From Candidatus Woesearchaeota archaeon (GTDB lineage: Archaea > Nanobdellota > Nanobdellia > SCGC-AAA011-G17 > ARS1403): 37,250 bases of DNA. Under the pieces are notes generated by a model. The model did no database searches. It saw nothing but the letters and a program-made list of their open reading frames with translations, and had not been told where the DNA came from. The stretch covers positions 28,823 through 66,072 of the forward strand of contig CAYJRS010000001.1 of assembly GCA_964372845.1 (NCBI GenBank), in the 5' to 3' direction. Below are positions 17,923 through 37,250 of the stretch, in pieces. How positions within the stretch are numbered: position 1 is the stretch's first letter; every line of letters starts with the position of its first letter. A program made the position numbers and the translations under genes.

Positions 17923-17984
17923 AAAAGTTTAAATAAGAAAGCTTATATATGAGTAATAACTTTGTTAAAAAAAGGTGAAACTGA

Positions 17985-18356
17985 ATGGATAAGAGAGGTC
18001 AAGAAGGGCTTTCTATGAATACTATTATAATTGCGATTATTGGCATCATAGTTCTGCTTTTGATTGTTACTTTCTTTACAGGAGGCATGTCAACTATATT
18101 TAATAAAATAAGAGGGGTGTTTGGAGGCGGTACTGCTGGATACGACGTCGATCTGGCTAAAGCACAGTGCCAGTCTTATTGTGAGAGAGCAAAATTAAAC
18201 CAAGAGACTTCACAGCCGACGTCTACATATTGCACGCAGGTGTTTGATATCCTGAAAACCGATGGAAGCGGAGATACTGAACCGCAAAAATGCGGTGCTA
18301 TAACGAGTAAAATATTCACTTCGTGTAGAATAAACAATGTTCAGATTACTTGTTAA
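17985..18356 (+). CDS. pilin-like protein (6 Cys)
   Basis: N-terminus MDKRGQEGLSMNTIIIAIIGIIVLLLIV. SD-like aggtga and TATA-like elements lie upstream. Confidence 0.6.
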   Translation: MDKRGQEGLSMNTIIIAIIGIIVLLLIVTFFTGGMSTIFNKIRGVFGGGTAGYDVDLAKAQCQSYCERAKLNQETSQPTSTYCTQVFDILKTDGSGDTEPQKCGAITSKIFTSCRINNVQITC

Positions 18357-18370
18357 TTTTTTCTTTTCCT

Positions 18371-18562
18371 ATGAATAAAAAAGGTTTAACTTGGAGCACA
18401 ATTGTTTATGCAATAATTGCGATAATAGTTTTGATAGTCATTGTCTGGATTTTTCGAGAGCAGATAAATGAGATTTACAAAAGCTTAACTGTGATCATCA
18501 AAGGGACTAGCAGCGGCGCTGAAGATGCTGGCAGGGAAATTAAAGACTTAATTAAAAGCTAA
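18371..18562 (+). CDS. 63-aa pilin-like protein
   Basis: N-terminus MNKKGLTWSTIVYAIIAIIVLIVIVWI. The ATG at 18371 is preferred to the track start at 18350. Confidence 0.55.
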   Translation: MNKKGLTWSTIVYAIIAIIVLIVIVWIFREQINEIYKSLTVIIKGTSSGAEDAGREIKDLIKS

Positions 18563-18595
18563 AGTTTATATATTTTTTAAACTAAATTGCCTGAC

Positions 18596-19387
18596 ATGAA
18601 TAAGAAAGGAGTTTTTACATTGGAGTTTACAATAAGTCTGGTTTTAACTGTTCTCGTACTTATTATTCTTGGTGGTTTTCTGCTTAAAGCGTATTCTTCT
18701 CAGCAATGTCCTGTTGGTTATAATATAATTAATGATTTTTCTGATCCTACAATCTATGAATTATGCGGCAGTGCTGAAAAGTTACAGGAGAATAAACAAA
18801 GATGCTGCCAAAGGAAAAGCGATCTCAATGAAGTTTGCTTGTGGGATATGGAGGATAAAGAATATTTAAGGTGTGATAAGATATCTTTGTTTAATTTTAA
18901 TAATGTTTGCTTGGATAATACTAAATGCGGGGTTTCTAGTAGAGAATGTTCTGGAGCTTATTGCGAGAAAGGGGTTTGCCTTGTGGAAAATGGAATTGGG
19001 AGATGTGTTGAGAAATTCAATATCGGAGAAAAAAGAATCAATATTGAGAGCAATGCCCTTTGTATTGAAGGTGTGAGGGATAATATTCTTGGAAGCAAAT
19101 GCGAGGGCGAAAAAGGATTGCATTGCATCTTCGACATTAAAAATAGTAGAGCTTTATGCAGAGGAGGTGGATTCTTGGCTATTAGCGAGCAAGATGCTTT
19201 TAATGAGTGTGGAGGACTATGCGAGGAAGCGAAAGAGAGATTTACTCCTAGTGAGATGTTTAAATCTGAATTTTGCAGAAGAGGTGCAATACCAGTAAGT
19301 TCTGGCGGCAAAGATAAGCCTATTATGAAGAAATGTTCTGAGATTTATCCTGACTGCAAATGTGGAGTATCCTCTCCAGAAGAATAG
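18596..19387 (+). CDS. cysteine-rich pilin-like protein (22 Cys)
   Basis: N-terminus MNKKGVFTLEFTISLVLTVLVLIILGG, with Glu at +5 after the Gly. The ectodomain has 22 cysteines. The ATG at 18596 is preferred to the TTG at 18587. Confidence 0.6.
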   Translation: MNKKGVFTLEFTISLVLTVLVLIILGGFLLKAYSSQQCPVGYNIINDFSDPTIYELCGSAEKLQENKQRCCQRKSDLNEVCLWDMEDKEYLRCDKISLFNFNNVCLDNTKCGVSSRECSGAYCEKGVCLVENGIGRCVEKFNIGEKRINIESNALCIEGVRDNILGSKCEGEKGLHCIFDIKNSRALCRGGGFLAISEQDAFNECGGLCEEAKERFTPSEMFKSEFCRRGAIPVSSGGKDKPIMKKCSEIYPDCKCGVSSPEE

Positions 19388-19426
19388 ACAAAAACAAATA
19401 TAAATTAAAGAAATTTAGGATAATAT

Positions 19427-19807
19427 ATGAATAAAAGAGGCGAAGGGTTAGTACAGATTCAGACTGTTGAGTTTGCTTTCCTAATTGTTCTTGTTATATT
19501 TTTTTCTGTAAGGCTTTACCAACCTATTGAAGAAAACAAATTGAATCAGATTAAAGCTGAAGATTTGGCTTTAAGTATTGAAAGTTTGCCGATACTTAAT
19601 GGAGACTTGAGATTGGACTACAAGTTTGGAGATGAATACTATATTGAAGAAATCAACAATGTTATTTTCATTTATAAATTATCTGAAGTAAAAAAAGGCA
19701 GAAGCAAGGTGGGTTTAGAAAATAGTTATGATTTTGCTGAAAACATTAATGATAAGACAGAGGCTATTGTGATTGAAAAAAAAGGGAAGAAGGTGGTGAT
19801 TTACTGA
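19427..19807 (+). CDS. pilin-like protein
   Basis: N-terminus MNKRGEGLVQIQTVEFAFLIVLVIFF. It is the first of four translationally coupled genes. Confidence 0.6.
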   Translation: MNKRGEGLVQIQTVEFAFLIVLVIFFSVRLYQPIEENKLNQIKAEDLALSIESLPILNGDLRLDYKFGDEYYIEEINNVIFIYKLSEVKKGRSKVGLENSYDFAENINDKTEAIVIEKKGKKVVIY

Positions 19808-23512: not shown

Positions 23513-26500
23513 ATGGATAAGATAGAGGATTTACCAGGGGTAGGGGCTGCGACCGCTGAAAAATTAATAAGTGCTGGATATGGTAATTTTATGTCGATAG
23601 CTGTTTCTAGTCCTGGAGAGATGGTTAATATTGCAGGGGTTACCGAGGCTACTGCTAGAAAAATAATAAATGCTGCCAGAAGCAAATTAGATATGGGGTT
23701 TGAAACTGGAGAAGAGCTGCTGAGAAAAAGAGAAAATGTTACTAAAATTTCTACTGGCAGTCAAAATTTAAATGCTATGCTTGGAGGAGGAATTGAAACT
23801 GGAGCTATAACTGAAGTTTATGGCGCCTTTGGCTCGGGAAAATGCTGCTCTTTTGAGACACCTGTTCTTTATTTTAATAATCATAGCCCTCATATTGAAC
23901 CTTTATCGGCTATCTATGAAAAATATAAGGAACTCCATGAGGAAAGGAAACAAGATGATGGTTTCTTTGTTGAAACTCCTGAGATAGAGGTTATTGGATT
24001 AGAAGGGAGACATATTAAAAAAACAAAAGCTGCTGGCATTTACAGAGAGTTTGTTGATAAACTCTATGAGATAAAAACAGGAAGGGGAAGAAAATTGAGA
24101 ATTACTGGATCACATAAACTTCTTTCTTTTTCAAAAGGATTACAATGGATGCCTGCCGGAGGGCTTAGCCAAGGTGATTTAATTGCGCATCCTAGAATCT
24201 TGCTCTATGATGGCGAAAAAACCATAAGCGAAGATGACGCTTATTTCTTGGGTTTATATGTGGCTGAAGGCGGAGGTAGAGGCATTTCTAATAATAACAA
24301 AGACCTTGTTCGTTGGATTGAAAATTATACCTTTAGTATGTTTGGATTTAAACCCAAAATTCATGAAGATAAGAGAAGAAAAGATGTTTGCTATAATCTC
24401 GGGCTTAGGAATGCTATGAAGCCTTTGCTTGGCGACCTTATGAAGTGTAACTCATCGAATAAATATATTCCTGAGTCTGTATTACTTGGAGATGAAAATA
24501 TCATAAAATCTTTCCTAGCTGGTTACGTTGACGGCGATGGTTATTTACCTGAAGATGGAGAGATAGAGATGACAACTTATAGCAAGACTCTAGCTAACAA
24601 TTTAAGTTATCTGCTGTTAAGATTAGGAATCCGTTGCTCTTATACAGAAAAAACTGCCGATGGAAAAATCTACTTTAGACTCTTTGTTTGTGGAGAGGAT
24701 AGAATGTTATTCAATACCTTGCCACTTAAATTAAAAAAAAGTTTTTATTCTTTCAGAAATAGTAAATATGGATATCCTTTACCTATTATTCGATACATTG
24801 CAGAAACTTATGCAGGAACTCTTGGAGGCAATCGCGGTTCTCATCGAAAAATTATTGGAAAACAGGCTAGTTATCATAAAGGAGAGAGATATATTTATGA
24901 CACTCTTAATCAGAAAACAAGAACTAATAGCCTTAATGATAAAACTTTGCTTGCAATTAAACTTCAATTTGAAGAAGGATTGAAGATTATTAAGGAAGCC
25001 TTGCTACTTGCGACTAGATTAGAGAAATTAAGCAAAGATGAATTTAATAATTTGCATAAACTACTTCCTTTCTCATTTAATATGATTCATGCGAGCATCG
25101 GAATCAAGCCTTCTACTACAACAAACTATATGCAAAGAGGACTTCCTAAAGATGTGGCTAAAGTGGGGAAGATAAAATCTTATATTATGCAGGAACTTCT
25201 TTTAAGAGAGGATAAACTATCGAGGGCGATTGCAGATATTAACAATGTGCTTTATTTTGCTTGGGATACAATCACAGAAATAAAACCTGTTGATTATGGG
25301 GATTATGTATATGATTTAGTTGTTCCTGAAGGGCATTTATTTGTTGGAGGGAATTTACCGACGATTTTGCATAATACTTCTCTTGCGCATCAACTAGCTG
25401 TTAATGTTCAGCTTCCGAGAGAAAAGGGCGGCGCTGAAGGAATTGCTGTTTGGATTGATAGCGAAGGGACAATAAGGCCTGAATACATTGCAAAATTAGC
25501 TGTAGCTCAAGGTTTAGATCCTAAAGGAATTTTGAAGAATTTTAGAGGGGTGAGGTCATTCAACAGCGATCATCAGGTGCTGCTTGCTGAAAAGGTTGAA
25601 GATCTAATAAAGGAAGGGTTGCCTGTCAAAATAATAATTGTTGATTCCTTGATGGGGCATTTCAGAAGCGATTTTTCTGGAAGGGGAGAGCTTGCTCCTC
25701 GTCAACAGAAATTAAATAAGCATTTGCATACTCTGCTTAAATTAGCAACTCAATATAATCTTGCAGTGTATGTTACAAATCAAGTGATGGCAAAACCTGA
25801 CACATTTTTTGGAGATCCTACTGAAGCCATCGGGGGACATGTGCTTCATCATGCTTGCTTAACTCCAGATACTTTGCTTCAATTGGCTGATGGAACGATT
25901 CTACCTATAGAAAATTTGACCAGATATGCCTCATTACCGGCTATTGACTTTAAGGATATGAAATCAAAAACTTTATTTTGTGACTTTGGTTCTAAAAGGA
26001 TGGATATTAAAAGAATATACGAAATAGACACTGGAAATAAAATTACGGCATCTGCAAGGCATAGGTTTTTTAGATTGAATAGATTACATATTGAGGAAGT
26101 TGAAGCTAAGGATCTTAAAAATGGCGATTATTTAATGCACTTAAACTTTATTGACATAGACGGCGAATTACAAAAGCTTCCTGAAATTGAACATAAAGAG
26201 CTTGTTAAGCTGAAGAAGGAAGGTGCGGATATAATCAAGGACGAACTTAAAATTAAAGGATTGACTAGGGAAAATATTTGTAAGGAAACTTCTATTAAGC
26301 CAAGGCATCTTAGAAGAATTTTAAATCAGGGCTATCCAACACAAAAAGAAGTTGTAGAGCATTTAATAAAATTAGCAGACCCTGCCGAAAGTGGAATTTA
26401 TGAGTATATAGAGGTATGTGAAACTAATAAGCATAAAATCTTAACTATTCCAAGAGAGTTAAACGAAGATTTTGCTCAGTTATTGGGATACCACCTAGGA

Positions 26501-27478
26501 GATGGCACTACTGGGGATTATTTTGTAAGATATAAAGATGAACGGATAGAGGTTCTTAAGCACTATTCTATATTATGTGGGAATTTATTCGGCATTAAAG
26601 GAAATATTTGCAAGGTTAAAGGAAAGAATTGTTATGAGTTGTCTGTTAACAGCAAGGTTATTAGTACTATTATAAGGGAAACAATGAATAATTTATTTTT
26701 ATTAGTTTCTAGATCTCCCAAGAGTGTTGTTGGTGCATTTATAAGGGGCTTCATGGATGCTGAAGGTTATGTTGCTAAAAATAGACCCAGGATTTCTTTG
26801 AGCCAGAAAAATGAGCAGACAATAAATTATTTGCAGATGCTACTTTTAAGATTTGGAATTAGATCTAGGAGAGATACTTCGAATTCAAGAAATAAATGCA
26901 TTGAGATTTTGCTGTTAGATGGAAGAGATTTTTATAACTTTGCTGTGAACATAGGCGTTACTGCTACGGATAAGAAGATGGTAATGGAGGGATGGATCAA
27001 ACATTGTGAAGACACTTATCGAAAAGAAATAATCCCAATACCTAGAAAAGATTTACAGATACTACTTAAAGAATGCGGAATTGCACCCTCGAAGGTTTTA
27101 AAGTGCAGGCCTGATAATTATAAATTTATTTCTAGAGATAATCTTAGAAATGTTTTTGATGCCCTGATGAAAAATGATATACCTGCTGTGTGCATAGAAA
27201 AGGTTGGCTTTATCCAGAAGCTCTTATTTGGGCAGGTAAGATTTGAAAAAATAAGAAATATTGCTATCAAAGCTAATTATGGACATTTGTATGATATCGG
27301 TGTTCCTTTCTTAGAAAATTACATAGCTAATGGATTTGTGGTGCATAATTCTACTTATCGTATATATTTGAGAAGAGGTAAGAAAGGGACTAGAGTTGCT
27401 AAACTTGTTGATGCGCCAGCTCTCCCAGAATCAGAATCTGTTTTTCAAGTAACTGATGAGGGAATTAAAGACGTGTAG
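23513..27478 (+). CDS. radA: RadA recombinase interrupted by two inteins (312-aa mature protein)
   Basis: The N-terminal HhH is DLPGVGAATAEKLISAGY. Walker A is GAFGSGK | intein 1 | TSLAHQLAV. The second break is GGHVLHHA | intein 2 | STYRIYLRRGKKGTRVAKLVDAP. Confidence 0.95.
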   Translation: MDKIEDLPGVGAATAEKLISAGYGNFMSIAVSSPGEMVNIAGVTEATARKIINAARSKLDMGFETGEELLRKRENVTKISTGSQNLNAMLGGGIETGAITEVYGAFGSGKCCSFETPVLYFNNHSPHIEPLSAIYEKYKELHEERKQDDGFFVETPEIEVIGLEGRHIKKTKAAGIYREFVDKLYEIKTGRGRKLRITGSHKLLSFSKGLQWMPAGGLSQGDLIAHPRILLYDGEKTISEDDAYFLGLYVAEGGGRGISNNNKDLVRWIENYTFSMFGFKPKIHEDKRRKDVCYNLGLRNAMKPLLGDLMKCNSSNKYIPESVLLGDENIIKSFLAGYVDGDGYLPEDGEIEMTTYSKTLANNLSYLLLRLGIRCSYTEKTADGKIYFRLFVCGEDRMLFNTLPLKLKKSFYSFRNSKYGYPLPIIRYIAETYAGTLGGNRGSHRKIIGKQASYHKGERYIYDTLNQKTRTNSLNDKTLLAIKLQFEEGLKIIKEALLLATRLEKLSKDEFNNLHKLLPFSFNMIHASIGIKPSTTTNYMQRGLPKDVAKVGKIKSYIMQELLLREDKLSRAIADINNVLYFAWDTITEIKPVDYGDYVYDLVVPEGHLFVGGNLPTILHNTSLAHQLAVNVQLPREKGGAEGIAVWIDSEGTIRPEYIAKLAVAQGLDPKGILKNFRGVRSFNSDHQVLLAEKVEDLIKEGLPVKIIIVDSLMGHFRSDFSGRGELAPRQQKLNKHLHTLLKLATQYNLAVYVTNQVMAKPDTFFGDPTEAIGGHVLHHACLTPDTLLQLADGTILPIENLTRYASLPAIDFKDMKSKTLFCDFGSKRMDIKRIYEIDTGNKITASARHRFFRLNRLHIEEVEAKDLKNGDYLMHLNFIDIDGELQKLPEIEHKELVKLKKEGADIIKDELKIKGLTRENICKETSIKPRHLRRILNQGYPTQKEVVEHLIKLADPAESGIYEYIEVCETNKHKILTIPRELNEDFAQLLGYHLGDGTTGDYFVRYKDERIEVLKHYSILCGNLFGIKGNICKVKGKNCYELSVNSKVISTIIRETMNNLFLLVSRSPKSVVGAFIRGFMDAEGYVAKNRPRISLSQKNEQTINYLQMLLLRFGIRSRRDTSNSRNKCIEILLLDGRDFYNFAVNIGVTATDKKMVMEGWIKHCEDTYRKEIIPIPRKDLQILLKECGIAPSKVLKCRPDNYKFISRDNLRNVFDALMKNDIPAVCIEKVGFIQKLLFGQVRFEKIRNIAIKANYGHLYDIGVPFLENYIANGFVVHNSTYRIYLRRGKKGTRVAKLVDAPALPESESVFQVTDEGIKDV
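23843..25375 (+). mobile_element. RadA intein 1 (511 aa, LAGLIDADG) at the P-loop GK|T site
   Basis: Starts CCSFETPVLYF, has block B TGSH and ends TILHN followed by +1 Thr. The LAGLIDADG motifs are FLGLYVAEGGG and FLAGYVDGDGYL. Confidence 0.85.
25856..27349 (+). mobile_element. RadA intein 2 (498 aa, LAGLIDADG) at the HHA|S site
   Basis: Starts CLTPDTLLQLADGTILPI, has a SARH block-B-like motif and ends FVVHN followed by +1 Ser. The LAGLIDADG motifs are LLGYHLGDGTT and FIRGFMDAEGYV. Confidence 0.85.
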
Positions 27479-28409: not shown

Positions 28410-28499
28410 CGTCCCCGCACGGATTCGAACCGTGGGTTTCAAGGTCCGCAACTTCGCAGCAAGAGCACTTGCGTTTTATCCAGACTAAACTACGGGGAC
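28410..28499 (-). tRNA. tRNA-Arg (anticodon GCG) with a 15-nt intron (28453..28467) placed between positions 30 and 31
   Basis: Manual fold gives acceptor GTCCCCG/CGGGGAC, D arm GTTT-AGTCTGGATA-AAAC and T arm CACGG-TTCGAAT-CCGTG. The anticodon region is 32 nt. Only removal of TGCTCTTGCTGCGAA gives a perfect arm, CAAGG-TTGCGGA-CCTTG, with T33 and G37. No CCA is encoded. Confidence 0.8.
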
Positions 28500-29585: not shown

Positions 29586-29861
29586 ATGGCAAAGGTTGTT
29601 GTTACTTTAAAGATTATGCCTGAGAGTCCTAAAACTGATTTGGATAAATTGCAGAAAAAAGTTCTGGAAAAAATAAAAAATGTTATAGGCGATACAGAGA
29701 CTAAAGTTGAGAAGGAAGCTATTGGTTTTGGATTGAATGCCTTAAAGATTTTATTTGTGATGGATGAAAATAAAAACGTTGATATTATAGAAGACGGAGT
29801 AAGGAAAATTAAAGAAGTGCAGTCTGTTGATGTGACTGATGTCAGGAGAGCTATTGGCTAA
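29586..29861 (+). CDS. ef1b: translation elongation factor aEF-1 beta
   Basis: The signature is MAKVVVTLKIMPESPKTDLDKL...AIGFGLNALKI...VDVTDVRRAIG, typical of aEF-1beta. Confidence 0.85.
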   Translation: MAKVVVTLKIMPESPKTDLDKLQKKVLEKIKNVIGDTETKVEKEAIGFGLNALKILFVMDENKNVDIIEDGVRKIKEVQSVDVTDVRRAIG

Positions 29862-30727
29862 ATTAAGTATAAAAATAAATTTCCGAAAATCAAGCTTATT
29901 ATCAATGATATTAAAAATGCTGGAGTGAAGATAATTCCTTCTTTTATTTTTACAGCGCTGATATTTGTTTTTTTAATTAAGGCTATTTGCTTCTTTGTTA
30001 ACTCTTGAGATTTCTTGTGGATTAATTTGTTTTTGTAAAAAAGATTTTCTATTATTAAATCACCTTCTCTTAGCTTTTCTACCGGGATTGTTTTTATCAG
30101 GCAGGTTCTTTCAACTGTTTTTATGAAGATGTAAATGTAAAAGAGAATCATTGGAGACACTGAAATAATTATTATAGCTGTTTTTGGGATGTTTGTTGCG
30201 AGCGATGATAAAATTATTACTGCTATTATTGAGAGGATGGTTATTTGGGTTTTCTTCGTGTCTTTTATAATCTGTTTGAAAGGTTTTAGGAATTTTTTAT
30301 TGTTTTTTACTGCCAATGAAACTGCGTAGATTAAGCTGTATATCGCCCCTATGATTAAAACATTTGTGAAAAAATCTATTGGGAAAGGGAAAAGAAGCTT
30401 CGGGCTGAAAAATTCTAGAAGGAAATAAGGGTAAGTTGCCAATGCCAGGCTTAGTGATATTAGTAATTTTGCATCTCCTCCGCCCCACTGCCTTAGGTAA
30501 TACATAATTGACGCCAGAATAAATATTATTGGAAATGAAGAAAAAATTGCAGATGTGAAACTCCAGTCTTTTGTTATTAAGGAATATAAAATTCTTAATG
30601 AAACTGCTGAGAATATCAGGAAATAATTCGCATAATCTGGGACCTCTGTAGTCTTTATGTCTGAGATTACTGCTATTATTGTTACTATGAATGCCAATAA
30701 AAGCAAAATTAATTCTATTTCGAACAT
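29858..30727 (-). CDS. A24-family prepilin/preflagellin peptidase (PibD/FlaK/EppA-like)
   Basis: The first Asp lies in ISDIKTTEVPD and the second in GGGDAKLL (GxGDxKL). It is polytopic. Confidence 0.8.
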   Translation of the reverse strand: MFEIELILLLLAFIVTIIAVISDIKTTEVPDYANYFLIFSAVSLRILYSLITKDWSFTSAIFSSFPIIFILASIMYYLRQWGGGDAKLLISLSLALATYPYFLLEFFSPKLLFPFPIDFFTNVLIIGAIYSLIYAVSLAVKNNKKFLKPFKQIIKDTKKTQITILSIIAVIILSSLATNIPKTAIIIISVSPMILFYIYIFIKTVERTCLIKTIPVEKLREGDLIIENLFYKNKLIHKKSQELTKKQIALIKKTNISAVKIKEGIIFTPAFLISLIISLIFGNLFLYLI

Positions 30728-31128: not shown

Positions 31129-32196
31129 ATGATAAGCATTATCGGAGGGGGGCCAAGTGGGGCTTACTTGGCTAGTTTAGTTAATGATGAAGTAAATTTA
31201 TATGAAGAGCATTCTGTTATTGGAAAACCGATTCAATGCACTGGTATTTTGACTCATAGCATTAAAGAACTAATTACTGTTAACGATGAATTTGTTGTGA
31301 ATAAAATTAAAAGAATAAAGTTGATCTCTCCTAGGAATGAAGAGTATGAGTTCAGATTAAATCATCCTGAAATCATAGTGGATAGATATAAGTTTGATAA
31401 TTATTTGATTAATTTAGCGAGAGAAAATGGTGCTGAAATATTTACAAATCATAAACTGAAAGATTTTTCTTTTGATGATAGAAAGATAAAACTAAAATTT
31501 CATGATAAAGAAGTTGAGACCGATATTTTAGTCGGGGCTGATGGACCTAATAGCCTTGTTGCGAGAAAAGCAGGATTGTTGAATGGGAGAAGGTATAAAA
31601 TAGGGCATCAATACACTGCAAAAGGAGAATTTGATAAGGAGATTTTTACTGTTTATTTCAATGGCAGGAAGAATTATTTTGGATGGGTTGTTCCTGAGAA
31701 TGATAAAATTGCAAGAATCGGGATTGTTGGAGATGGAAATATTCCTGAATTATTCCAGGGATTTTTAGATAAAATAAAGATAGATAAAAAAGACTTTGTC
31801 GAGTGCCAAAGCGGGGTGATTCCTGTTTTTGATTATAAATCTAGATGCTGCGACGGAGACGTGTATCTTGTTGGCGATGCTGCGGGGCATGTAAAAGCAA
31901 CTACACTTGGCGGGATAGTATACGGGATGAGGGCTGCAAAGATACTTGCAAATGTTTTGGAAAAAGGCGGAGATTATGATAAATTGCTGAGAAAAGAAAT
32001 TGGAAGAGATCTATGGTTGGATAACAAAACTGCTGAATTTTTGAGCAAATTTGGCGAGGATGAATTTGATGAATTTATTAGATTATTGAGAAAAGTTGAT
32101 CTTGGGAGATTTAATAGAGATAAGCCTTTTTCTGGATTGCACTTGTTCTTGAAGCCGAGCTTGATTTATTTTTTAATGAGGCAGGGATTAAAATAA
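31129..32196 (+). CDS. geranylgeranyl reductase family flavoprotein (archaeal lipid saturation)
   Basis: Motifs seen are IIGGGPSGAYLA (GxGxxG), VGADGPNSLVARKAG and LVGDAAGHVKATTLGGI. Confidence 0.85.
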   Translation: MISIIGGGPSGAYLASLVNDEVNLYEEHSVIGKPIQCTGILTHSIKELITVNDEFVVNKIKRIKLISPRNEEYEFRLNHPEIIVDRYKFDNYLINLARENGAEIFTNHKLKDFSFDDRKIKLKFHDKEVETDILVGADGPNSLVARKAGLLNGRRYKIGHQYTAKGEFDKEIFTVYFNGRKNYFGWVVPENDKIARIGIVGDGNIPELFQGFLDKIKIDKKDFVECQSGVIPVFDYKSRCCDGDVYLVGDAAGHVKATTLGGIVYGMRAAKILANVLEKGGDYDKLLRKEIGRDLWLDNKTAEFLSKFGEDEFDEFIRLLRKVDLGRFNRDKPFSGLHLFLKPSLIYFLMRQGLK

Positions 32197-32712
32197 ATTT
32201 ATTGCGTAGTCGAGGCCTTGGCAAAAGCCAGATATAATTGGAAAGCTGAAAGATAAAACGAAGTAAAGCGAAAATGCAGAGATTATTCCTATGATGTAAT
32301 TAAACCCTCTAGAACTTTGCAATAAAAATCCTACAACTGCTGATATTGGCGCCATAAATGGTATTGGTGCTATTCCTAGAATTAACCCGAATAAGAACAT
32401 TAAGAATGCGTTTGGAATTGCTATTAATAATGAAATCCCCGAGGAGAAAGCCATGGTTGCCCAGAGAAATCCGATTGCTATACCCGCCATGATTGTTATG
32501 AACGAAGATAATCCGAATGTTCCTGCTGTTGCAAGGTCAATAAAGAAGTCTGCTCCTGATGCAATTACCCCTATGATAATCGGGCCAAGCTTTCTTGAAA
32601 ACGCTCCTATTATAATTAGAGTTAAAGCTACGAATAATATGTTGTCTAAGGAATATTTTATAAGCTCAAATAAAAATCTCCAGAAGTATTCTACGCATAT
32701 ATTCAAGGGCAT
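32188..32712 (-). CDS. integral membrane protein (Gly/Ala/Ile-rich TM segments)
   Basis: 174-aa hydrophobic ORF with no family recognised. Confidence 0.45.
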   Translation of the reverse strand: MPLNICVEYFWRFLFELIKYSLDNILFVALTLIIIGAFSRKLGPIIIGVIASGADFFIDLATAGTFGLSSFITIMAGIAIGFLWATMAFSSGISLLIAIPNAFLMFLFGLILGIAPIPFMAPISAVVGFLLQSSRGFNYIIGIISAFSLYFVLSFSFPIISGFCQGLDYAINLF

Positions 32713-32757
32713 TTTTCTTAGTAACCTTTAAATATTAATAAAGTTATTTGTTGCTTT

Positions 32758-33912
32758 ATGAATAAAAGAGGAGTGGAAGGGACTTCTGCTGGTAATGTTG
32801 CTACCTTGATTGCTTTAATCGCATTATTCTTGGTAGTTTATATTCTATTATTGCCTGAAGCTGATAGAAATAGACTCTTAGGCACTGATCAAGATAAGAA
32901 GGCTGAGGTTACTGGCGTTGGAGATGTTTTACTAAGCGAGTTTATTGGGAAAGTTGAGCCCGGAGAGCAGGCAAAGAGAAGACTGCATGAAATTGCCAAT
33001 GTTAATTTATTTACTAAAGAAGAATCCGGATTAATAACATTATCTGAGAACATAAAAGTAAGCAAGGGATTTTTTGGAAGCAAAGACCAGAATATTTTTT
33101 TTAAAATCGATAATCCTGATGATGTGCTGAAAACTGAATTATACCTCGTTGTTGATTCTGGAAACGGGGACTTGATAATTGATATTAATGGAAATGAATT
33201 TTACAGGAATGAAATCAAGCAAGGGCAGATTAGGATTGATATTCCTCTTGATTATTTAGCTAATGCGAATAATTTAAGATTGAGCGTTTCTGGATTTGGT
33301 CCTAAATTATATTCCTTGAGAGATGTTAAATTAAGGAAGAATGAGGAGATTAAGAACAGGGTTGCGAGAAGAACTTTCTCTGTTGATGCCGAGGAAAAAA
33401 ATAAGATGGAGAGAGCCATTATGAGATACAGTGTATTTTGCGAGAGAGATGAGGATAAGGCTTTGAGGATTTTGCTTAATGATAATTTAGTTTACAGCGA
33501 TGTTCCTTTCTGCAACTTGAAGGAGGATGCTGTCGAGCTCGGCACTGGACTTTTTAGAGCCGGGGTGAATAACTTGGATTTTGAAACTGAGGGAGATTAC
33601 TTAATTGAAGGGATTAACCTGAAAACTTTTTCCGATGAGGAAGAGCTGCCTGAATATTTCTTTTCTTTGAAACAAGATGATTTTAGGAGAGTGAGAAGGG
33701 GGCTGAATGACGTTGTTGCGAGCTTTGAATTCAGCTTGAGGGATGATAGGAAGAGTTTTGTGCTGGAGATAAATGGAGAAGAGATAAATATTGATACTAC
33801 GGATGATACATTTTTAGTTGTTCTTACTGACTTCGTTGAAGAGGAGAATTTGATTAGGATAGATGCGAAGAATAGCTTTGAGATACTTGAATTTAAAGTA
33901 GTTTTGGAGTAA
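32758..33912 (+). CDS. large pilin-like protein (384 aa)
   Basis: N-terminus MNKRGVEGTSAGNVATLIALIALFLVVYILLL, matching the motif of the 16-21 kb cluster. Confidence 0.6.
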   Translation: MNKRGVEGTSAGNVATLIALIALFLVVYILLLPEADRNRLLGTDQDKKAEVTGVGDVLLSEFIGKVEPGEQAKRRLHEIANVNLFTKEESGLITLSENIKVSKGFFGSKDQNIFFKIDNPDDVLKTELYLVVDSGNGDLIIDINGNEFYRNEIKQGQIRIDIPLDYLANANNLRLSVSGFGPKLYSLRDVKLRKNEEIKNRVARRTFSVDAEEKNKMERAIMRYSVFCERDEDKALRILLNDNLVYSDVPFCNLKEDAVELGTGLFRAGVNNLDFETEGDYLIEGINLKTFSDEEELPEYFFSLKQDDFRRVRRGLNDVVASFEFSLRDDRKSFVLEINGEEINIDTTDDTFLVVLTDFVEEENLIRIDAKNSFEILEFKVVLE

Positions 33913-33916
33913 AAAG

Positions 33917-35263
33917 ATGGCTGTTAAATGTCCTAAATGCGGGAGGACAATACAGAATCAGGGTGCGCTGAATACACATATGTTGACTCACAAATCCAAT
34001 ACTGCTAGTCAAAGAGATTCTTCTTCTTTTTATAGCGGAAGAGATTCTGGAAATAATTCTGGAGATAGAGGAAAGGTGAGGAGCTCTAATTCAGGACCTT
34101 TGATTTTTTTATTGATAATTATTGCACTTGTTATTTTTTGGATAAGCCCCTGGTTTGAAAAAGCTGTTGCTTCCGGAGTTTTGGAAACTAAAGGGGGGAA
34201 ATTAATCAAGCCGTTGTTTTCTTTTGCCGATGCTGCCAAGGATAGTTTGTCTAATACTGCCAGCACCCTCAGCAAATTTGCCAGCGGAGAATATAAATCT
34301 AGCTTGAAGAGCGACGTTGAGGAGAGAGTGAAATCTGGATTGGAGTTTGGTGAGCTGAAAATTTCAGGAATTGAATTTGGAGGATTGAGCTTGAGCAATG
34401 AACTTAAAGTTGACACCATCATTATTGTAGGAAAGTTAGATTCTGCGATTGAAAACATTAGAGCTAAAATCTCTTGCAGACTTGGTCCTGAGAATATAAC
34501 CGGGGATGTTAAGAGCGATGTTGTCGACGATAAAGGAATCATTGTTTTGGATAATCCTAATGAATTGCCTAGCTATGAGCAAGATGGAATTAGATGTGCT
34601 TTTCCTAAGGATAAAATAAACCTGCCTAAAAATGTGAATGCCAAAGAAGTTGAGATGATGCTTAGCTATTCTTTATCTCCCGGCTTCAGCTTAGAGACTT
34701 TTGTGATGGATAAAAATCTGGAAATCGACGAGAAAGAAAAACTTAGAAGAGGAGAATATGATCGGATTTCTAAGATGAGGTATATAACCGATGTCGACGC
34801 CAAACTGCAATTCAGCGACAAGAAACCATTGATAGCTGGAGAAAGTAAATTGCTTGGAATTCAGTTTGAGAATAAAAATAAGAGAAGAAACAATGTTGTT
34901 TTGGAGAGCTTTATTATTAGATTGCCAGGAGAGCTGAGTTTTGAAAAATGCGATGCCATGAATTTTGATTCTGGAAAAGGATTTTGGGTGATGGATAAAA
35001 AATATTTGGACTGGGTCAGCAAGCAGCTTAATGAAGACGATGGAGAAAGTGATTTGATTGAATGCGGGGTTAGGGCTCCAAGTGTTAGAGGCTCTGTTGC
35101 TGGAGTAGCTCCTATAGGTAAGATTGATGGGAGAGTAGGATTTAGAAATACTATAAGCAAGAAGCAAGATGTTATAATCTACAAGAAGGACGAGCCTAAG
35201 AATGATGAGCCTGTATTAGTAGAGGAGCAGAAGAATAGTGAGGATAAAGCTGAGAATGCATAG
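33917..35263 (+). CDS. C2H2 zinc finger, low-complexity linker, single TM segment and large ectodomain
   Basis: CPKCGRTIQNQGALNTHMLTH has exact Cx2Cx12Hx3H spacing. An S/G/N-rich linker follows, then the TM segment GPLIFLLIIIALVIFWISPWF and about 360 aa outside. Confidence 0.6.
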   Translation: MAVKCPKCGRTIQNQGALNTHMLTHKSNTASQRDSSSFYSGRDSGNNSGDRGKVRSSNSGPLIFLLIIIALVIFWISPWFEKAVASGVLETKGGKLIKPLFSFADAAKDSLSNTASTLSKFASGEYKSSLKSDVEERVKSGLEFGELKISGIEFGGLSLSNELKVDTIIIVGKLDSAIENIRAKISCRLGPENITGDVKSDVVDDKGIIVLDNPNELPSYEQDGIRCAFPKDKINLPKNVNAKEVEMMLSYSLSPGFSLETFVMDKNLEIDEKEKLRRGEYDRISKMRYITDVDAKLQFSDKKPLIAGESKLLGIQFENKNKRRNNVVLESFIIRLPGELSFEKCDAMNFDSGKGFWVMDKKYLDWVSKQLNEDDGESDLIECGVRAPSVRGSVAGVAPIGKIDGRVGFRNTISKKQDVIIYKKDEPKNDEPVLVEEQKNSEDKAENA

Positions 35264-35308
35264 AAACATTTTTATAAACAACAAGGTTTTTAAAAATAAG
35301 GTGATGCG

Positions 35309-36259
35309 ATGTCTAAATTTAAAGTTTTTATAATAATTCTAGTTTTGTTTTTTGTAATGGGGCAGAGCTGCAAAATCGGAGGGAAGAAGAAAAGTGGCTT
35401 TGTGGAGGATGATTTCACTGGAACTAAAGGCCTTGTGCTGAATCTCGTCGAGGGACTGCCACCGAAGGAGATCTGGAAAGGGATTGAGTTTGGAATCTGG
35501 GTCGATGTGCATAATCAAGGTGTTAATGATGTAAAAAAAGGAAGGGTTTGCGTCGGTTCTTTGCCTAGCAGCATATTTACTAAATCTGACAGCTGTTTAG
35601 AGTTAAAAGAGATTGCTGGGAGGAGAAATTTTCCTGGAGGGGAAATACAGACTTATGGAGAGGGAAGCTGGGATGGGTTTTTTCTTAAAGATAGTTATGA
35701 AGTTCCTGTAGATTCTACGTATCCAATTTCTGCTAAAGCCTGCTATGAATACAGCACAGTTCTTTCACCTCTGATCTGTGTTCGAGATTTGAGAATGAAT
35801 GAAAAAGATGTTGTCTGCAAAGCTGGAAACATTAAAGTCCCTAGCAGCCAGGGTGGTCCTGTCTCTGTTGTTTTCCTGAAAGAGGATATTGTGCCGAGGG
35901 GAAGTGAAAATGAACTGTTCTTTACCTTCAAGATTAAAAATGCTGGCGACGGAGATGTTATTAAATCTGGTGTTGAGAATGATGAATGCAGGTTTACCAA
36001 TAGAAAGGATAAGGACGTTGTGAATATTGAAATTGAGCTGCCTGGGTTTGGGAAAGGGGATTGTAAAAATGAAGGGAAAATTATTTTAATTAATGGAGAG
36101 GGACAGGGGTTCTGCTCTGGAATCAAGGTTCCAAAGGGAGAGAGTTTTTCGTTACCTTTAAATATTAAATTAACATATGGATATTTGTCTCATATTAGAG
36201 GTGAGTTCATGATCAAGAAAGATTTAACGACGAAAAAGGAGACTTTGGAGGGGATATAA
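35309..36259 (+). CDS. secreted or lipoprotein-like protein, paralog A (signal ends GQSC)
   Basis: N-terminus MSKFKVFIIILVLFFVMGQSC. It shares blocks with the next ORF (GLVLNLVEGLPP, KACYEYS..LICV, FTFKIKNAGDGDV, LTYGYL). Confidence 0.6.
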   Translation: MSKFKVFIIILVLFFVMGQSCKIGGKKKSGFVEDDFTGTKGLVLNLVEGLPPKEIWKGIEFGIWVDVHNQGVNDVKKGRVCVGSLPSSIFTKSDSCLELKEIAGRRNFPGGEIQTYGEGSWDGFFLKDSYEVPVDSTYPISAKACYEYSTVLSPLICVRDLRMNEKDVVCKAGNIKVPSSQGGPVSVVFLKEDIVPRGSENELFFTFKIKNAGDGDVIKSGVENDECRFTNRKDKDVVNIEIELPGFGKGDCKNEGKIILINGEGQGFCSGIKVPKGESFSLPLNIKLTYGYLSHIRGEFMIKKDLTTKKETLEGI

Positions 36260-37191
36260 TGAAAAAAAAGAGGTACTATATTTTTTTAGTTCTAATTTCA
36301 CTAATTTTAATTTCTGGTCAGGCTTGTGAAAGGAGAGATAAAAAAGCGGGAGTTTTTTTAGGAGGGAAAGAAGGGCTTGTAATTGATTTCGTCGAGGATG
36401 CTCCTCCTATCAGCGGAATTTTTAAAGATGAGGGGTTTCCAATTGATGTTGAGCTGATTAATAAAGGAGAGACTGAGATTGGGCAGGGTTCTGCTATTAT
36501 TTATTTAACTGGGGCTTTGTTTTCCAGCAATGCAATTGATGCTACGAATAAGCAAGCCAGCAATGATGCATTTATAGCTGCTGTCGAGGATAGCGAAAAA
36601 GGAAGGGTTGAAGACAGCTTAGTTGTTTCTTTAGGAACTGCTACTTATAAAGGAACGATTTTGGGAGACAGTGTGCCTTTGGATGCTAGGGCTAGTGTTT
36701 GCTATCCTTATGAAACTAGAATTCAAGTAGATGAGTTTTGCGTTCCAAGCACTGCAAGAAAAGTAACTGGGACTGATGACTGCGAGATTATAACTACTGA
36801 AAATATAATAAGAGATAAGGATAATTCTGGAGCTCCTGTGCACGTTACCTCTCTAAGAGAGCAGAAAGGACCTGATTTTGTAAGAGTTACTTTAGATGTT
36901 AATAATGTCGGTACCGGGGACGTAGTTGCTCCAGGGGTTTGCAAAAGAGATTTGGAAAGGGCTGATTTGGATAAAGTCAGAGTGAAGATGCCGACGAATT
37001 TTGCTTGCAGCTTTAGAGATGGAGAGGGTAGCGAGGGTATAGTTGAATTGAGAAGCGGACATGCTGTGCTGAGATGCAAGAGAGATGTGAATAATCCTGG
37101 AAGCGCATTTAAGGAAAGTGTCGGGATAACTTTGGGATACAATTACTTGCAGGAAATAAGCAAGACAGTTACGATTAATAAAGGAAGTTAA
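36259..37191 (+). CDS. secreted or lipoprotein-like protein, paralog B (signal ends GQAC)
   Basis: N-terminus MKKKRYYIFLVLISLILISGQAC. The matching blocks are GLVIDFVEDAPP, SVCYPYE..EFCV, VTLDVNNVGTGDV and LGYNYL. There is a 1-nt TAATG overlap with paralog A. Confidence 0.6.
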   Translation: MKKKRYYIFLVLISLILISGQACERRDKKAGVFLGGKEGLVIDFVEDAPPISGIFKDEGFPIDVELINKGETEIGQGSAIIYLTGALFSSNAIDATNKQASNDAFIAAVEDSEKGRVEDSLVVSLGTATYKGTILGDSVPLDARASVCYPYETRIQVDEFCVPSTARKVTGTDDCEIITTENIIRDKDNSGAPVHVTSLREQKGPDFVRVTLDVNNVGTGDVVAPGVCKRDLERADLDKVRVKMPTNFACSFRDGEGSEGIVELRSGHAVLRCKRDVNNPGSAFKESVGITLGYNYLQEISKTVTINKGS

Positions 37192-37250
37192 ATAGCTTTA
37201 TAAATTTTTTATTCTTTTTTTCCTTTTATGGAAATAATTGCAGATTTACA

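What the first reader, a model, noticed from the sequence alone, without database searches (positions are those of the whole stretch)
32758..37191. Second surface module: a pilin-like gene, a zinc-finger TM protein and two paralogous GQ[SA]C-signal proteins
Four co-directional, tightly packed genes make up this module. The first is a 384-aa protein with the same MNKRG plus hydrophobic N-terminus as the main pilus cluster. The second is a 448-aa single-pass protein. The last two are about 310-aa paralogs overlapping by 1 nt (TAATG). Their signal peptides end in a conserved G-Q-[SA]-C, which is lipobox-like but non-canonical. They share blocks (GLV..(V/L)VE..PP, CY.Y...C(V), (F/L)..(K/D)(I/V).N.G.GDV, L.YGY/LGYNY) and several cysteines. 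The N.G.GDV beta-sandwich-like signature recalls CARDB-like adhesion domains. The ectodomain of 33917..35263 may be a distant relative (LGIQFENKNKRRNNVV). I could not assign any of these to a characterised system.
Basis: partly seen in the sequence, partly recalled or inferred. Interest (0 to 1): 0.7.

Follow-up and report, generated by a model that had tools for sequence, protein, structure and literature searches.

The report
Conserved DPANN archaeal surface-protein operon
The four genes are a real, previously undescribed surface-protein operon found across Woesearchaeota-type DPANN archaea, and relatives carry bacterial cell-wall-cutting domains on it, so it may show how these tiny archaea contact partner cells.

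Summary
All four ORFs, the TAATG overlap, the MNKRG N-terminus and the GQ[SA]C motif are exactly as described. The g3/g4 paralogy is significant (BLASTP E=1e-19).

The window is from a Woesearchaeota-type DPANN archaeon. The order g1, g2, then 2-5 copies of the g3/g4 family recurs in nine lineages, and their flanking genes differ. So this is a conserved operon, not inherited synteny.

- **g1:** a prepilin-like (class III) N-terminus followed by three jelly-roll, carbohydrate-binding-like domains.
- **g2:** a type II membrane protein. Its zinc finger is not conserved.
- **g3/g4:** ancient A-type and B-type paralogs, always in A-then-B order. Each is two Ig-like sandwiches behind an invariant Cys. 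Distant relatives have a canonical lipobox at that Cys.

The g3/g4 family has about 3,000 clusters at 50% identity and no Pfam or NCBIfam model.

In three lineages g2 or a lipoprotein carries a murein-hydrolase domain (M23, SLT or 3D). The window's copy carries none.

My best reading is a membrane-anchored surface complex for contact with partner-cell walls. That function is inferred, not shown. Linkage to the pilus ATPase is not conserved. Homology between g2 and g3/g4 is unproven.

The parts
32727..32742 (+). A/T-rich TATA-like element (TTTAAATATTAATAAA) in the 45-bp gap between the divergent 174-aa membrane-protein gene and g1; likely operon promoter
   Evidence: Read directly from the sequence. 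Its centre is about 28 nt upstream of the g1 ATG. Promoter function is inferred from archaeal TATA-box geometry and was not tested.
32758..33912 (+). g1: 384-aa protein with a prepilin-like (class III) N-terminus (residues 1-5 MNKRG, nt 32758-32772), a hydrophobic helix (residues 11-31, nt 32788-32850), then three jelly-roll beta-sandwich domains (about residues 105-196, 201-292 and 299-383)
   Evidence: ORF. N-terminal motif compared with the pilus-cluster pilins. Orthologues are 67-80% identical. Distant homologues in L009, L010, L012, L013, L015 and L016 score E=2.7e-60 to 7.5e-155 and share the motif basic-[GA]|Q, hydrophobic stretch, Y-x-L-x-L-P-x-x-[DE]-R-x-x-LL. AF2 model has pLDDT 68.6. 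Foldseek hits are tandem galactose-binding-like or CBM-like jelly rolls, E=6e-8.
33917..35263 (+). g2: 448-aa type II membrane protein. It has a cytoplasmic C2H2-type finger (residues 5-25, nt 33929-33991), a single TM (residues about 60-80, nt 34094-34156) and a Cys-containing ectodomain of about 350 aa
   Evidence: Orthologues are only 25-30% identical outside the closest relative, and the zinc finger is not conserved. Homologues sit at the same position in L008-L016 at E=3.7e-12 to 1.8e-151.
35270..35278 (+). TATA-like TTTTATAAA in the 45-nt g2-g3 spacer, followed by GGTGAT 4 nt before the g3 ATG; possible internal promoter for g3-g4
   Evidence: Read from the sequence. In L001 three small genes are inserted between g2 and g3, which is consistent with g3-g4 having their own promoter. 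This is an inference.
35309..36259 (+). g3: 316-aa class-A lipoprotein-like protein. It has a signal peptide ending MGQSC (Cys21, nt 35369-35371), a flexible linker and two Ig-like beta-sandwich domains (about residues 40-160 and 185-303)
   Evidence: AF2 model has pLDDT 83.4 and pTM 0.76. Foldseek finds only generic tandem Ig-like hits. It falls in clade A of the NJ tree.
36259..37191 (+). g4: 310-aa class-B paralog of g3, with a signal peptide ending SGQAC (Cys23, nt 36325-36327). It is probably translationally coupled to g3 through the TAATG overlap
   Evidence: It falls in clade B, which is always the last gene or genes of the module in 10 of 10 loci.
37205..37228 (+). T-rich run (TTTTTTATTCTTTTTTTTCCTTTT) after g4; likely archaeal oligo-T terminator and end of the operon
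   Evidence: Read from the sequence. The next gene starts at 37228 (MEIIADL) and matches the start of the MJ0043_C-containing neighbour in L002. Terminator function is inferred.
29858..30727 (-). Associated gene, not in the operon: an A24 prepilin-peptidase homologue, the probable processing enzyme for the g1 N-terminus
   Evidence: Pfam Peptidase_A24 at E=4.2e-9 plus Arc_PepC. It lies within 3 kb upstream of the module in the window, L002/L005, L003, L004, L007 and L010, where it is directly adjacent. It is absent near the module in L009, L012 and L013.

Best explanation
The block is one copy of a conserved four-component operon of Woesearchaeota/Pacearchaeota-type DPANN archaea. I read it as encoding a membrane-anchored extracellular complex.

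Shown here:
- Gene order g1, g2, A-type lipoprotein(s), B-type lipoprotein(s) is kept across deeply diverged lineages whose flanking genes differ.
- Every product carries a membrane-targeting N-terminus.
- g3 and g4 are tandem Ig-like sandwiches behind an invariant Cys.
- The g1 ectodomain is modelled as three jelly-roll domains.
- Relatives carry M23, SLT or 3D murein-hydrolase domains on g2 or on a lipoprotein.

Inferred:
- The operon is transcribed from a TATA-like box about 28 nt upstream of g1.
- The TAATG overlap couples g3 and g4 translation, giving matched A:B amounts.
- g3 and g4 are Sec-exported and lipid-anchored at Cys21 and Cys23 by the archaeal AliA-type pathway. A disordered linker then tethers them to the membrane.
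- g1 is cleaved after Gly5 by the nearby A24 peptidase. It then stays membrane-anchored, or pilus-presented, through its hydrophobic helix. Its carbohydrate-binding-like domains bind glycans.
- g2 is the transmembrane scaffold. Its variable cytoplasmic tail couples to the cell interior.
- Together they form a contact or adhesion device aimed at the cell wall of a partner organism, possibly a bacterium.

The window's version has no catalytic domain, so here it would act as an adhesive or structural device only.
For: Conserved module:
- Local hmmsearch with g1, g2 and g3/4 profiles finds g1, g2 and 2-5 family members in that order in the window, L001-L007, L009, L010/L011, L012, L013, L015 and L016. 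It finds g2 plus 3 members at the contig start in L008 and L014.
- Flanking genes differ. They are A24, GGR and MJ0043_C in one group, and Pelota, FmrO, PRC and RFC in the other.
- A/B split: the NJ tree of 27 paralogs has two deep clades. Clade B (FxGGxxGL motif, g4 type) is always the last gene or genes.

Lipoprotein reading:
- The Cys is invariant.
- Most of 150 distant representatives, and all 19 paralogs in the distant loci, have canonical L-x-[GAS]-C lipoboxes.
- Residues 19-32 of the g3 model have low pLDDT, as expected for a tether.
- AliA (arCOG02177) is reported present in DPANN (PMC12462473).

g1:
- The prepilin-like motif is shared with the pilins of this window's pilus cluster and conserved in relatives only 26-27% identical.
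- An A24 peptidase lies 2 kb upstream, and is directly adjacent in L010.
- Foldseek hits are reelin repeats, GH35/GH2 C-terminal domains, BcsB carbohydrate-binding domains and PNGase F, at E=6e-8 to 3e-4.

Cell-wall link:
- Peptidase_M23 on g2 in L008/L015, E=9e-19.
- SLT on g2 in L012, E=4.5e-10, and a 3D domain on a lipoprotein in L013, E=7.9e-12.
- Large SLT proteins specific to Woese/Pacearchaeota were already proposed to bind bacterial walls (PMC8204110 and PMC9723730).
Against: - The window's own four proteins contain no hydrolase or recognised wall-binding domain.
- Hydrolase fusions occur in only 3 of 9 sampled lineages. They could simply reflect a convenient display scaffold.
- Structural matches are generic, with TM-scores of about 0.2.
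- The g1 model is of moderate quality, with pLDDT 68.6 and pTM 0.38.
- Nothing here shows that the four proteins interact physically.
- Cleavage of g1 and lipidation of g3/g4 are inferred from motifs. The window's GQ[SA]C departs from the canonical lipobox at positions -2 and -3.
- No expression, localisation or host data exist.
- The nine lineages were found through one family, so the sampling is small and not random.
Confidence: 0.45

Rival explanations
1. The module encodes structural cell-envelope proteins: an S-layer-like or sub-S-layer coat. Lipid-anchored A/B Ig-domain proteins would form the lattice, and g2 and g1 would serve as membrane anchors. There would be no specific role in partner contact.
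For: - Many archaeal S-layer proteins are arrays of Ig-like domains, and some are lipid-anchored (general knowledge).
- g3/g4 are tandem Ig-like sandwiches.
- The module is near-universal in the sampled lineages and sits among housekeeping genes.
- An obligate A+B pair would fit a two-component lattice.
- No other S-layer candidate was seen in the window.
Against: - There is no sequence similarity to any solved S-layer protein.
- At about 300 aa the proteins are small for S-layer subunits.
- Copy number varies from 2 to 5.
- Hydrolase and Cys-rich fusions are unusual for lattice subunits.
- The carbohydrate-binding-like g1 is not explained.
Confidence: 0.25
2. The module is an accessory set of the type IV pilus encoded at 8.8-21.4 kb. 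g1 would be a large tip or minor pilin adhesin assembled by that ATPase and platform. g2-g4 would be assembly or anchoring factors.
For: - g1 shares the lineage-specific MxKRG-x-EG-[LT]S prepilin motif with the pilins of the cluster.
- The A24 peptidase lies between the two loci, and is adjacent to the module in L010.
- The T2SSE ATPase is in the same window.
Against: - No ATPase or platform homologue lies within 10 kb of the module in any of the other loci tested by phmmer, L001-L014.
- Pelota-linked loci (L009, L012, L013, L016) have no A24 nearby.
- The g1 model lacks a pilin head packed on the helix. It has a Pro break and a disordered linker after the TM.
- There is no Pfam pilin hit.
Confidence: 0.15
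3. The module is a nutrient-capture device, analogous to a bindosome. Surface-tethered glycan-binding (g1) and Ig-domain proteins, sometimes with murein hydrolases, would harvest cell-wall fragments or polysaccharides from the environment for uptake. It would not mediate cell-cell contact.
For: - A class III signal peptide on a non-pilin binding protein parallels the Sulfolobus sugar-binding proteins (bioRxiv 10.64898/2026.04.22.720090).
- g1 has a CBM-like fold.
- Hydrolase fusions could release muropeptides.
- Scavenging of peptidoglycan by Pacearchaeota has been proposed (PMC11537232).
Against: - No transporter genes are adjacent in any locus.
- g3/g4 do not have a substrate-binding-protein fold.
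Confidence: 0.1

Closest known systems
Archaeal class III signal-peptide (prepilin-like) non-pilin surface proteins, e.g. Sulfolobus bindosome sugar-binding proteins
   Same: g1 has a short basic N-terminus ending in [GA], followed by Q/V and a hydrophobic helix of about 20 residues. An A24 peptidase gene is nearby. The mature part is a large binding-type ectodomain rather than a small pilin head.
   Different: There is no sequence homology and no periplasmic-binding-protein fold. No dedicated Bas-like ATPase or platform is linked. The +2 position departs from the classical FlaFind pattern. Cleavage is untested.
Prokaryotic lipobox lipoproteins, including archaeal AliA/AliB-dependent lipoproteins of Haloferax volcanii (PMC12462473)
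   Same: g3/g4 have a signal peptide with an invariant Cys at the end of the h-region, a disordered tether and a disulfide-rich ectodomain. Distant family members have canonical L-[ASV]-[GAS]-C.
   Different: The window clade has G-Q-[SAKT]-C, which is non-canonical at -2 and -3. Lipidation and an AliA gene in this genome were not examined.
CARDB / E-set Ig-like adhesion domains (Pfam PF07705)
   Same: Both are beta-sandwich folds with an 'N-x-G-x-G-x-V' strand-turn signature. CARDB is the only recurrent weak Pfam hit in the family, in 9 of 62 members.
   Different: No member reaches the Pfam gathering score, and the window proteins give no hit at E<=1. The family has its own conserved CYxYxT, multiple Cys and C-terminal YxY motifs.
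Large extracellular murein lytic-transglycosylase proteins of Woesearchaeota/Pacearchaeota (fam00969 in 'Module 98', Castelle et al. 2021, PMC8204110; Vigneron et al. 2022, PMC9723730)
   Same: The taxa are the same. The g2 homologue in L012 is a 1173-aa membrane protein with an SLT domain directly after the g2-type ectodomain. The module may therefore be the genomic and structural context of those proteins.
   Different: The window's g2 is 448 aa and has no SLT or other hydrolase domain. The papers I read do not mention this operon.
BcsB-type, GH-associated or reelin-type tandem jelly-roll carbohydrate-binding domains
   Same: These are the best Foldseek matches of the g1 model, at E=6e-8 to 3e-4 and probability about 1.0. 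They are tandem galactose-binding-like jelly rolls on a membrane-tethered protein.
   Different: TM-scores are only 0.15-0.24, identity is 6-13%, and there is no Pfam CBM hit. Sugar binding is not shown.

Membership tests
Archaeal type IV pilin / class III signal-peptide proteins (g1) | Short basic N-terminus, [KR]-[GA] cleavage site, then a hydrophobic helix of about 20 residues | tested here: met
   The N-terminus is MNKRG|VEGTSAGNVATLIALIALFLVVYILLL. The pattern occurs in only 6 of 89 window ORFs, and the other five are in the pilus cluster. It is conserved in L009, L010, L012, L013, L015 and L016.
Archaeal type IV pilin / class III signal-peptide proteins (g1) | Classical FlaFind-type +1 to +4 pattern after the cleavage site, or a Pfam pilin N-terminal domain hit | tested here: not met
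   The +2 residue is E or G. Pfam shows no family for g1 at E<=1. The bona fide pilins in this window's cluster deviate in the same way, so the test may be too strict for this lineage.
Archaeal type IV pilin / class III signal-peptide proteins (g1) | Genomic linkage to a secretion ATPase and platform protein | tested here: not met
   The ATPase (8800-13191) is about 20 kb away in the window. No ATPase or platform homologue lies within 10 kb of the module in any other locus tested, L001-L014.
Archaeal type IV pilin / class III signal-peptide proteins (g1) | Pilin fold: N-terminal helix packed against a compact beta-sheet head | tested here: inconclusive
   The AF2 model shows helix 11-31, a break, helix 34-40, a low-confidence linker and then three separate beta-sandwiches. 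pLDDT is only 68.6 and pTM 0.38.
Archaeal type IV pilin / class III signal-peptide proteins (g1) | Cleavage by a PibD/FlaK/EppA-type A24 peptidase | not testable with these tools
   An A24 homologue is present 2 kb upstream. Processing needs an experiment.
Lipobox lipoproteins (g3, g4) | Canonical lipobox [LVI]-[ASTVI]-[GAS]-C at the end of a signal peptide | tested here: not met
   The window has M-G-Q-S-C and S-G-Q-A-C. The -1 position fits, but -2 (Q) and -3 (G) do not. Most distant relatives do have canonical boxes at the aligned Cys.
Lipobox lipoproteins (g3, g4) | Invariant +1 Cys following an n-region and h-region | tested here: met
   C21 is invariant in the alignments of 16, 31 and 62 sequences.
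Lipobox lipoproteins (g3, g4) | Thioether lipid on the Cys, and the biogenesis enzyme (AliA, arCOG02177) in the genome | not testable with these tools
   Only 37 kb of the genome is available. The literature reports AliA in DPANN 'with some gaps' (PMC12462473).
CARDB (PF07705) | Pfam model match at or above the gathering score | tested here: not met
   g3 and g4 give no hit at E<=1. Nine of 62 family members hit below threshold, best E=0.0033.
CARDB (PF07705) | Ig-like (E-set) beta-sandwich fold | tested here: met
   The AF2 model of g3 has pLDDT 83.4 and two all-beta domains. Foldseek hits are integrin thigh/calf, complement MG, transglutaminase barrels and RbmA.
Known archaeal S-layer proteins | Sequence or profile similarity to a characterised S-layer protein | tested here: not met
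   Profile searches of PDB sequences with A5, A6 and A9 found nothing significant. There are no Pfam or NCBIfam hits.
Known archaeal S-layer proteins | Formation of a 2D lattice and very high abundance | not testable with these tools
   This needs cryo-ET or proteomics.
ABC-transporter substrate-binding lipoproteins | Periplasmic-binding-protein (two alpha/beta lobes) fold and adjacent permease/ATPase genes | tested here: not met
   The g3 model is all-beta. No ABC genes are adjacent in the window or in any related locus.
C2H2 zinc finger (g2 N-terminus) | C-x2-4-C-x12-H-x3-5-H and a Pfam zf-C2H2 match above cutoff | tested here: inconclusive
   The spacing C5-x2-C8-x12-H21-x3-H25 is exact. 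The Pfam score of 20.7 is below the 25.2 cutoff. The motif is absent from the orthologues in L001, L003 and L007.
Woese/Pacearchaeota large SLT-domain proteins (fam00969, PMC8204110) | Murein lytic transglycosylase (SLT/GH23) domain | tested here: not met
   The window g2 has no SLT hit. The g2 homologue in L012 has SLT at residues 734-822, E=4.5e-10.

The most novel reading that the evidence does not exclude
The four genes are the minimal, hydrolase-free version of a conserved 'contact machine' of Woese/Pacearchaeota. Its parts would be a class-III-processed glycan-binding protein, a transmembrane scaffold and an obligate A/B lipoprotein pair. Different lineages would plug murein hydrolases (M23, SLT, 3D) onto this chassis. 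On this reading the module is the long-sought molecular interface between these uncultivated DPANN archaea and their partners, and its hydrolase cargo argues that many of those partners are bacteria.
Probability: 0.3. Interest if true: 0.8.

Novelty: new variant of a known kind. Interest (0 to 1): 0.6.

Why it matters
How Woesearchaeota and Pacearchaeota attach to other cells is an open question. So is the identity of their hosts. These archaea make up a large share of archaeal diversity and none has been cultivated.

Earlier work noticed isolated 'large SLT proteins' in these groups. The present analysis places such proteins in a conserved operon with defined partners. The partners are a prepilin-like glycan-binding protein and two ancient classes of lipoprotein. 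The lipoprotein family has about 3,000 clusters at 50% identity and no Pfam or NCBIfam model.

This gives concrete, testable targets:
- lipidation at an unusual GQxC box;
- class III processing of a non-pilin protein;
- A/B heteromer formation;
- binding to peptidoglycan or glycans.

It also gives a marker set for finding host-contact genes in DPANN metagenomes. If the module turns out to be a plain envelope or S-layer component, it would still be the first candidate envelope protein set for these lineages.

Tried and rejected
Searches that led nowhere:
- Pfam and NCBIfam on the four proteins gave only the sub-threshold zf-C2H2 hit.
- The one genome-contig scan, with g1, returned only three close Woesearchaeota relatives.
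- I tried a concatenated g1+g2 alignment for the last homologous-protein search. The candidate list was swamped and only three close g2 homologues came back.
I worked around this by registering the same proteins through the listing of cluster members.
- PDB sequence-profile searches for g1, g2 and g3/4 found nothing significant.
- A viral-contig scan found no relatives, so a viral origin is not supported.
- The sigma-70 promoter and hairpin-terminator scan was at chance level, as expected for an archaeon.
- Rfam found no RNA family in the region.

Ideas considered and rejected:
- **ABC substrate-binding lipoproteins.** The fold is wrong and there are no transporter genes.
- **Membership of known S-layer families.** No similarity was found.
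- **The divergent 174-aa polytopic membrane protein (32188-32712) as a module component.** It is conserved only in the close clade.
- **The downstream MJ0043_C/PHP-like gene as a component.** It follows a T-rich stretch after g4 that also holds a TATA-like TTTATAAA. It is absent from L009, L012, L013 and L015.
- **A conserved zinc-finger function for g2.** The finger is not conserved.

Left open: homology between the g2 ectodomain and g3/g4. hhalign gives at most 9.7% probability. The 168-column alignment does place the CYxYxT, GAPV, NxGxG, Cys and terminal YxY motifs in the same order.

Full report
**1. The observation**

- g1, 32758-33912, 384 aa
- g2, 33917-35263, 448 aa
- g3, 35309-36259, 316 aa
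- g4, 36259-37191, 310 aa

All four are on the + strand. The gaps are 4 nt and then 45 nt, followed by a one-base overlap that reads TAATG.

g3 and g4 align over their full length at 26% identity, BLASTP E=1e-19. Both signal peptides end in G-Q-[SA]-C.

g2 has one hydrophobic segment at about residues 60-80. It also has an exact C-x2-C-x12-H-x3-H motif at residues 5-25. Pfam zf-C2H2 scores E=5.5e-4, below its cutoff.

g1 begins MNKRG followed by a hydrophobic helix. Among the 89 window ORFs of at least 60 aa, only six have a basic-basic-[GA] motif followed by such a helix. Five lie in the pilus gene cluster at 16456-19807 and the sixth is g1.

**2. Organism and surroundings**

The window has about 35% GC. 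It encodes:
- RadA with two inteins
- RPA
- an A24 prepilin peptidase with the archaeal C-terminal domain
- a geranylgeranyl-reductase-like flavoprotein
- a T2SSE-family ATPase interrupted by an intein

The closest database proteins are annotated Candidatus Woesearchaeota or Nanoarchaeota archaeon. It is therefore a DPANN archaeon of the Woesearchaeota type.

**3. The g3/g4 family**

- The word-indexed search found only 17-35 relatives.
- A full HMMER scan of 1.84 billion cluster representatives found 3,052 clusters at E<=1e-3 and 754 at E<=1e-30. Nearly all are 300-330 aa.
- None of the four window proteins has a Pfam or NCBIfam assignment. A scan of 62 g3/g4 family members gave only sub-threshold Pfam hits.
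- The Cys after the signal h-region is invariant in the alignments of 16, 31 and 62 sequences.
- Most of the 150 best representatives, and all 19 paralogs in the distant loci, carry a canonical lipobox at that Cys, such as LLAGC, FVSGC, LIVGC or LLTAC. The window clade's GQ[SAKT]C is therefore a derived variant of a lipoprotein signal.
- AliA, the archaeal lipoprotein-lipidating enzyme, is reported in DPANN (PMC12462473).
- The AF2 model of g3 has pLDDT 83.4 and pTM 0.76. It shows the signal helix, a disordered tether (residues 19-32) and two all-beta domains.
- Foldseek against the PDB returns only generic tandem Ig-like sandwiches, at TM-scores of about 0.2. These are integrin thigh/calf, complement MG domains, transglutaminase barrels and RbmA.
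- CARDB is the only recurrent Pfam signal. It is sub-threshold, in 9 of 62 members with best E=0.0033, and absent for the window proteins.

**4. The other two proteins**

*g1.* It is the most conserved component, at 67-80% identity among close relatives.

Homologues only 26-27% identical keep the same N-terminal design. That design is basic residues, [GA], Q/V, a hydrophobic stretch, then Y-x-L-x-L-P-x-x-[DE]-R-x-x-LL.

The AF2 model is of moderate quality, with pLDDT 68.6 and pTM 0.38. It has a helix at 11-31, a low-confidence linker, and three beta-sandwich domains. Foldseek matches tandem jelly-roll, galactose-binding-like domains at E=6e-8 to 3e-4. These are reelin repeats, GH35/GH2 accessory domains, BcsB carbohydrate-binding domains and PNGase F.

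g1 therefore looks like a class-III-signal protein carrying carbohydrate-binding-type modules, not a filament subunit.

*g2.* It diverges fast, at 25-30% identity outside the closest relative. Its cytoplasmic tail is variable:
- a C2H2 finger here and in the closest relative
- a Cys4 ribbon in L004 and L006
- nothing in L001, L003 and L007
- long coiled-coil regions and several TM segments in L009, L012 and L013

The ectodomain is the conserved part.

Its relationship to g3/g4 is not established. BLASTP is not significant and hhalign gives 0.6-9.7% probability. The best hhalign alignment does place the CYxYxT, GAPV, NxGxG, Cys and terminal YxY motifs in the same order over 168 columns.

**5. 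Conservation of the block**

I fetched contigs that encode family members from progressively more distant clusters. I then classified their ORFs with local HMMs for g1, g2 and g3/4.

| Locus or loci | g1 (aa) | g2 (aa) | g3/4-family lipoproteins |
|---|---|---|---|
| window, L001-L007 | 384-391 | 438-507 | 2 |
| L010/L011 | 372 | 492 | 2 |
| L009 | 396 | 682 | 5 |
| L012 | 556 | 1173 | 3 |
| L013 | 429 | 740 | 3 |
| L015 (full version of L008) | 395 | 760 | 3 |
| L016 | 399 | 605 | at least 2 (contig ends) |
| L014 | contig starts inside g2 | partial | 3 |

Flanking genes fall into at least two unrelated arrangements:
- A24 peptidase, then GGR, upstream, and an MJ0043_C/PHP-like gene downstream
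- Pelota and FmrO upstream, and PRC and RFC downstream

So the co-occurrence is not merely inherited synteny.

A neighbour-joining tree of 27 paralogs splits into two deep clades. Clade B has the motif FxGGxxGL and contains g4. It always holds the last gene or genes of the module. Clade A has the motif xGTxG and contains g3. It always comes before clade B. This holds in 10 of 10 loci. g3 and g4 are therefore ancient, non-redundant partners. With the TAATG coupling, that suggests a heteromer.

**6. What is not linked**

- No T2SSE ATPase or platform homologue lies within 10 kb of the module in any of the other loci tested by phmmer, L001-L014.
- The A24 peptidase is near the module only in the Woesearchaeota-type arrangement.
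- The divergent 174-aa membrane protein is restricted to the close clade.
- The downstream gene starts at 37228 (MEIIADL). It lies after a T-rich stretch and is absent from the other arrangement.

**7. A functional lead**

In three of the nine lineages a murein-hydrolase domain is fused to a module component:
- Peptidase_M23 on g2 in L008/L015, E=9e-19
- SLT on g2 in L012, residues 734-822, E=4.5e-10
- a 3D domain on the first lipoprotein of L013, E=7.9e-12

Other members carry Cys-rich C-terminal tails.

The literature already notes large extracellular SLT proteins specific to Woesearchaeota and Pacearchaeota. It proposes that they bind or degrade bacterial cell walls (PMC8204110, PMC9723730, PMC12352652). 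In the parts of those papers that I read, I found no mention of this operon or of its lipoprotein family. The further full-text searches turned up no paper that clearly addresses it either.

**8. Mechanism proposed**

*Shown:*
- a conserved operon
- membrane-targeting N-termini on all four products
- Ig-like lipoprotein-type A/B paralogs
- a jelly-roll g1
- hydrolase fusions in relatives

*Inferred:*
- Transcription starts from the TATA-like element at 32727-32742. There is a possible internal promoter at 35270-35278.
- g3 and g4 are Sec-exported and thioether-lipidated at Cys21 and Cys23.
- The A24 peptidase cleaves g1 after Gly5.
- g1, g2, A and B assemble into a membrane-tethered complex. 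It binds partner cell-wall glycans and, in some lineages, cuts them.

The window's copy has no catalytic domain.

My confidence that the products are extracytoplasmic and form a conserved functional unit is high, about 0.85. My confidence in the partner-contact function is about 0.45.

Rivals:
- a structural envelope or S-layer role (0.25)
- a pilus tip or accessory set (0.15)
- a nutrient-capture device (0.1)

**9. Novelty and verdict**

The parts are of known kinds: a class III signal, a lipobox and Ig-like or CBM-like domains. The four-component operon, its fixed A-then-B order, the size of the unannotated family and its link to the DPANN murein hydrolases appear to be undescribed. I rate it a new variant of a known kind, with interest 0.6.

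Noticed in passing
window 8800-13191 (+): The type II/IV secretion-family ATPase gene of the pilus cluster is interrupted by an intein with a LAGLIDADG homing-endonuclease domain. Pfam gives Intein_splicing E=4.9e-28, LAGLIDADG_3 E=1.9e-19 and T2SSE E=1.5e-9.
   Followed up: no
window 23513-27478 (+): RadA (Rad51 family, E=1.8e-73) carries two intein insertions with LAGLIDADG or Hom_end endonuclease domains, giving a 1321-aa ORF. Relatives L002 and L004 have intein-free or split versions.
   Followed up: no
window 13264-14248 (+): Two genes are inserted between the ATPase and the 703-aa polytopic membrane protein of the pilus cluster. One is a wHTH plus nucleotidyltransferase (NTP_transf_2/Polbeta) gene. 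The other is an overlapping 142-aa gene. They could be a toxin-antitoxin-like pair.
   Followed up: no
L008 27-2093 / L015 3436-5718; L012 5142-8663; L013 6272-8236: Murein-hydrolase domains are fused to module components in other DPANN lineages. These are Peptidase_M23 on g2, SLT on a 1173-aa g2, and a 3D domain on a class-A lipoprotein.
   Followed up: yes
window 32188-32712 (-): A 174-aa polytopic membrane protein with no Pfam hit sits divergent from g1 and shares a 45-bp A/T-rich intergenic region with it. It is conserved next to g1 only in the close Woesearchaeota clade. I did not test whether it relates to lipoprotein biogenesis (AliA-like).
   Followed up: partly
L001 3577-4701: In one close relative, three small genes (104, 34 and 125 aa, the last a weak DUF2283 hit) are inserted between g2 and g3. 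This implies that g3-g4 can be expressed from their own promoter.
   Followed up: no
window 37228-37250 (+); L002 11897-13129: The gene after g4 starts MEIIADL and is cut by the window end. Its orthologue is a roughly 410-aa protein with the Pfam MJ0043_C domain and a PHP-like N-terminus (DLQLHSRFS). It is conserved downstream of the module in the Woesearchaeota-type synteny only.
   Followed up: partly
window 28410-28499 (-): The only Rfam hit in the window is a tRNA of 90 nt, at 48 bits. It is long enough to contain an intron.
   Followed up: no
L015 12956-18758 (+): A giant ORF of more than 2,207 aa with no Pfam hit on record lies 4 kb downstream of the M23-bearing module and runs off the contig.
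   Followed up: no
P0034 (395 aa), L010 7562-9040: A g3/4-family member and a g2 homologue have independently acquired Cys-rich C-terminal tails, for example CEECTTNPEKC...CAGTNYCCVPG. This hints at interchangeable cargo positions on both scaffolds.
   Followed up: no
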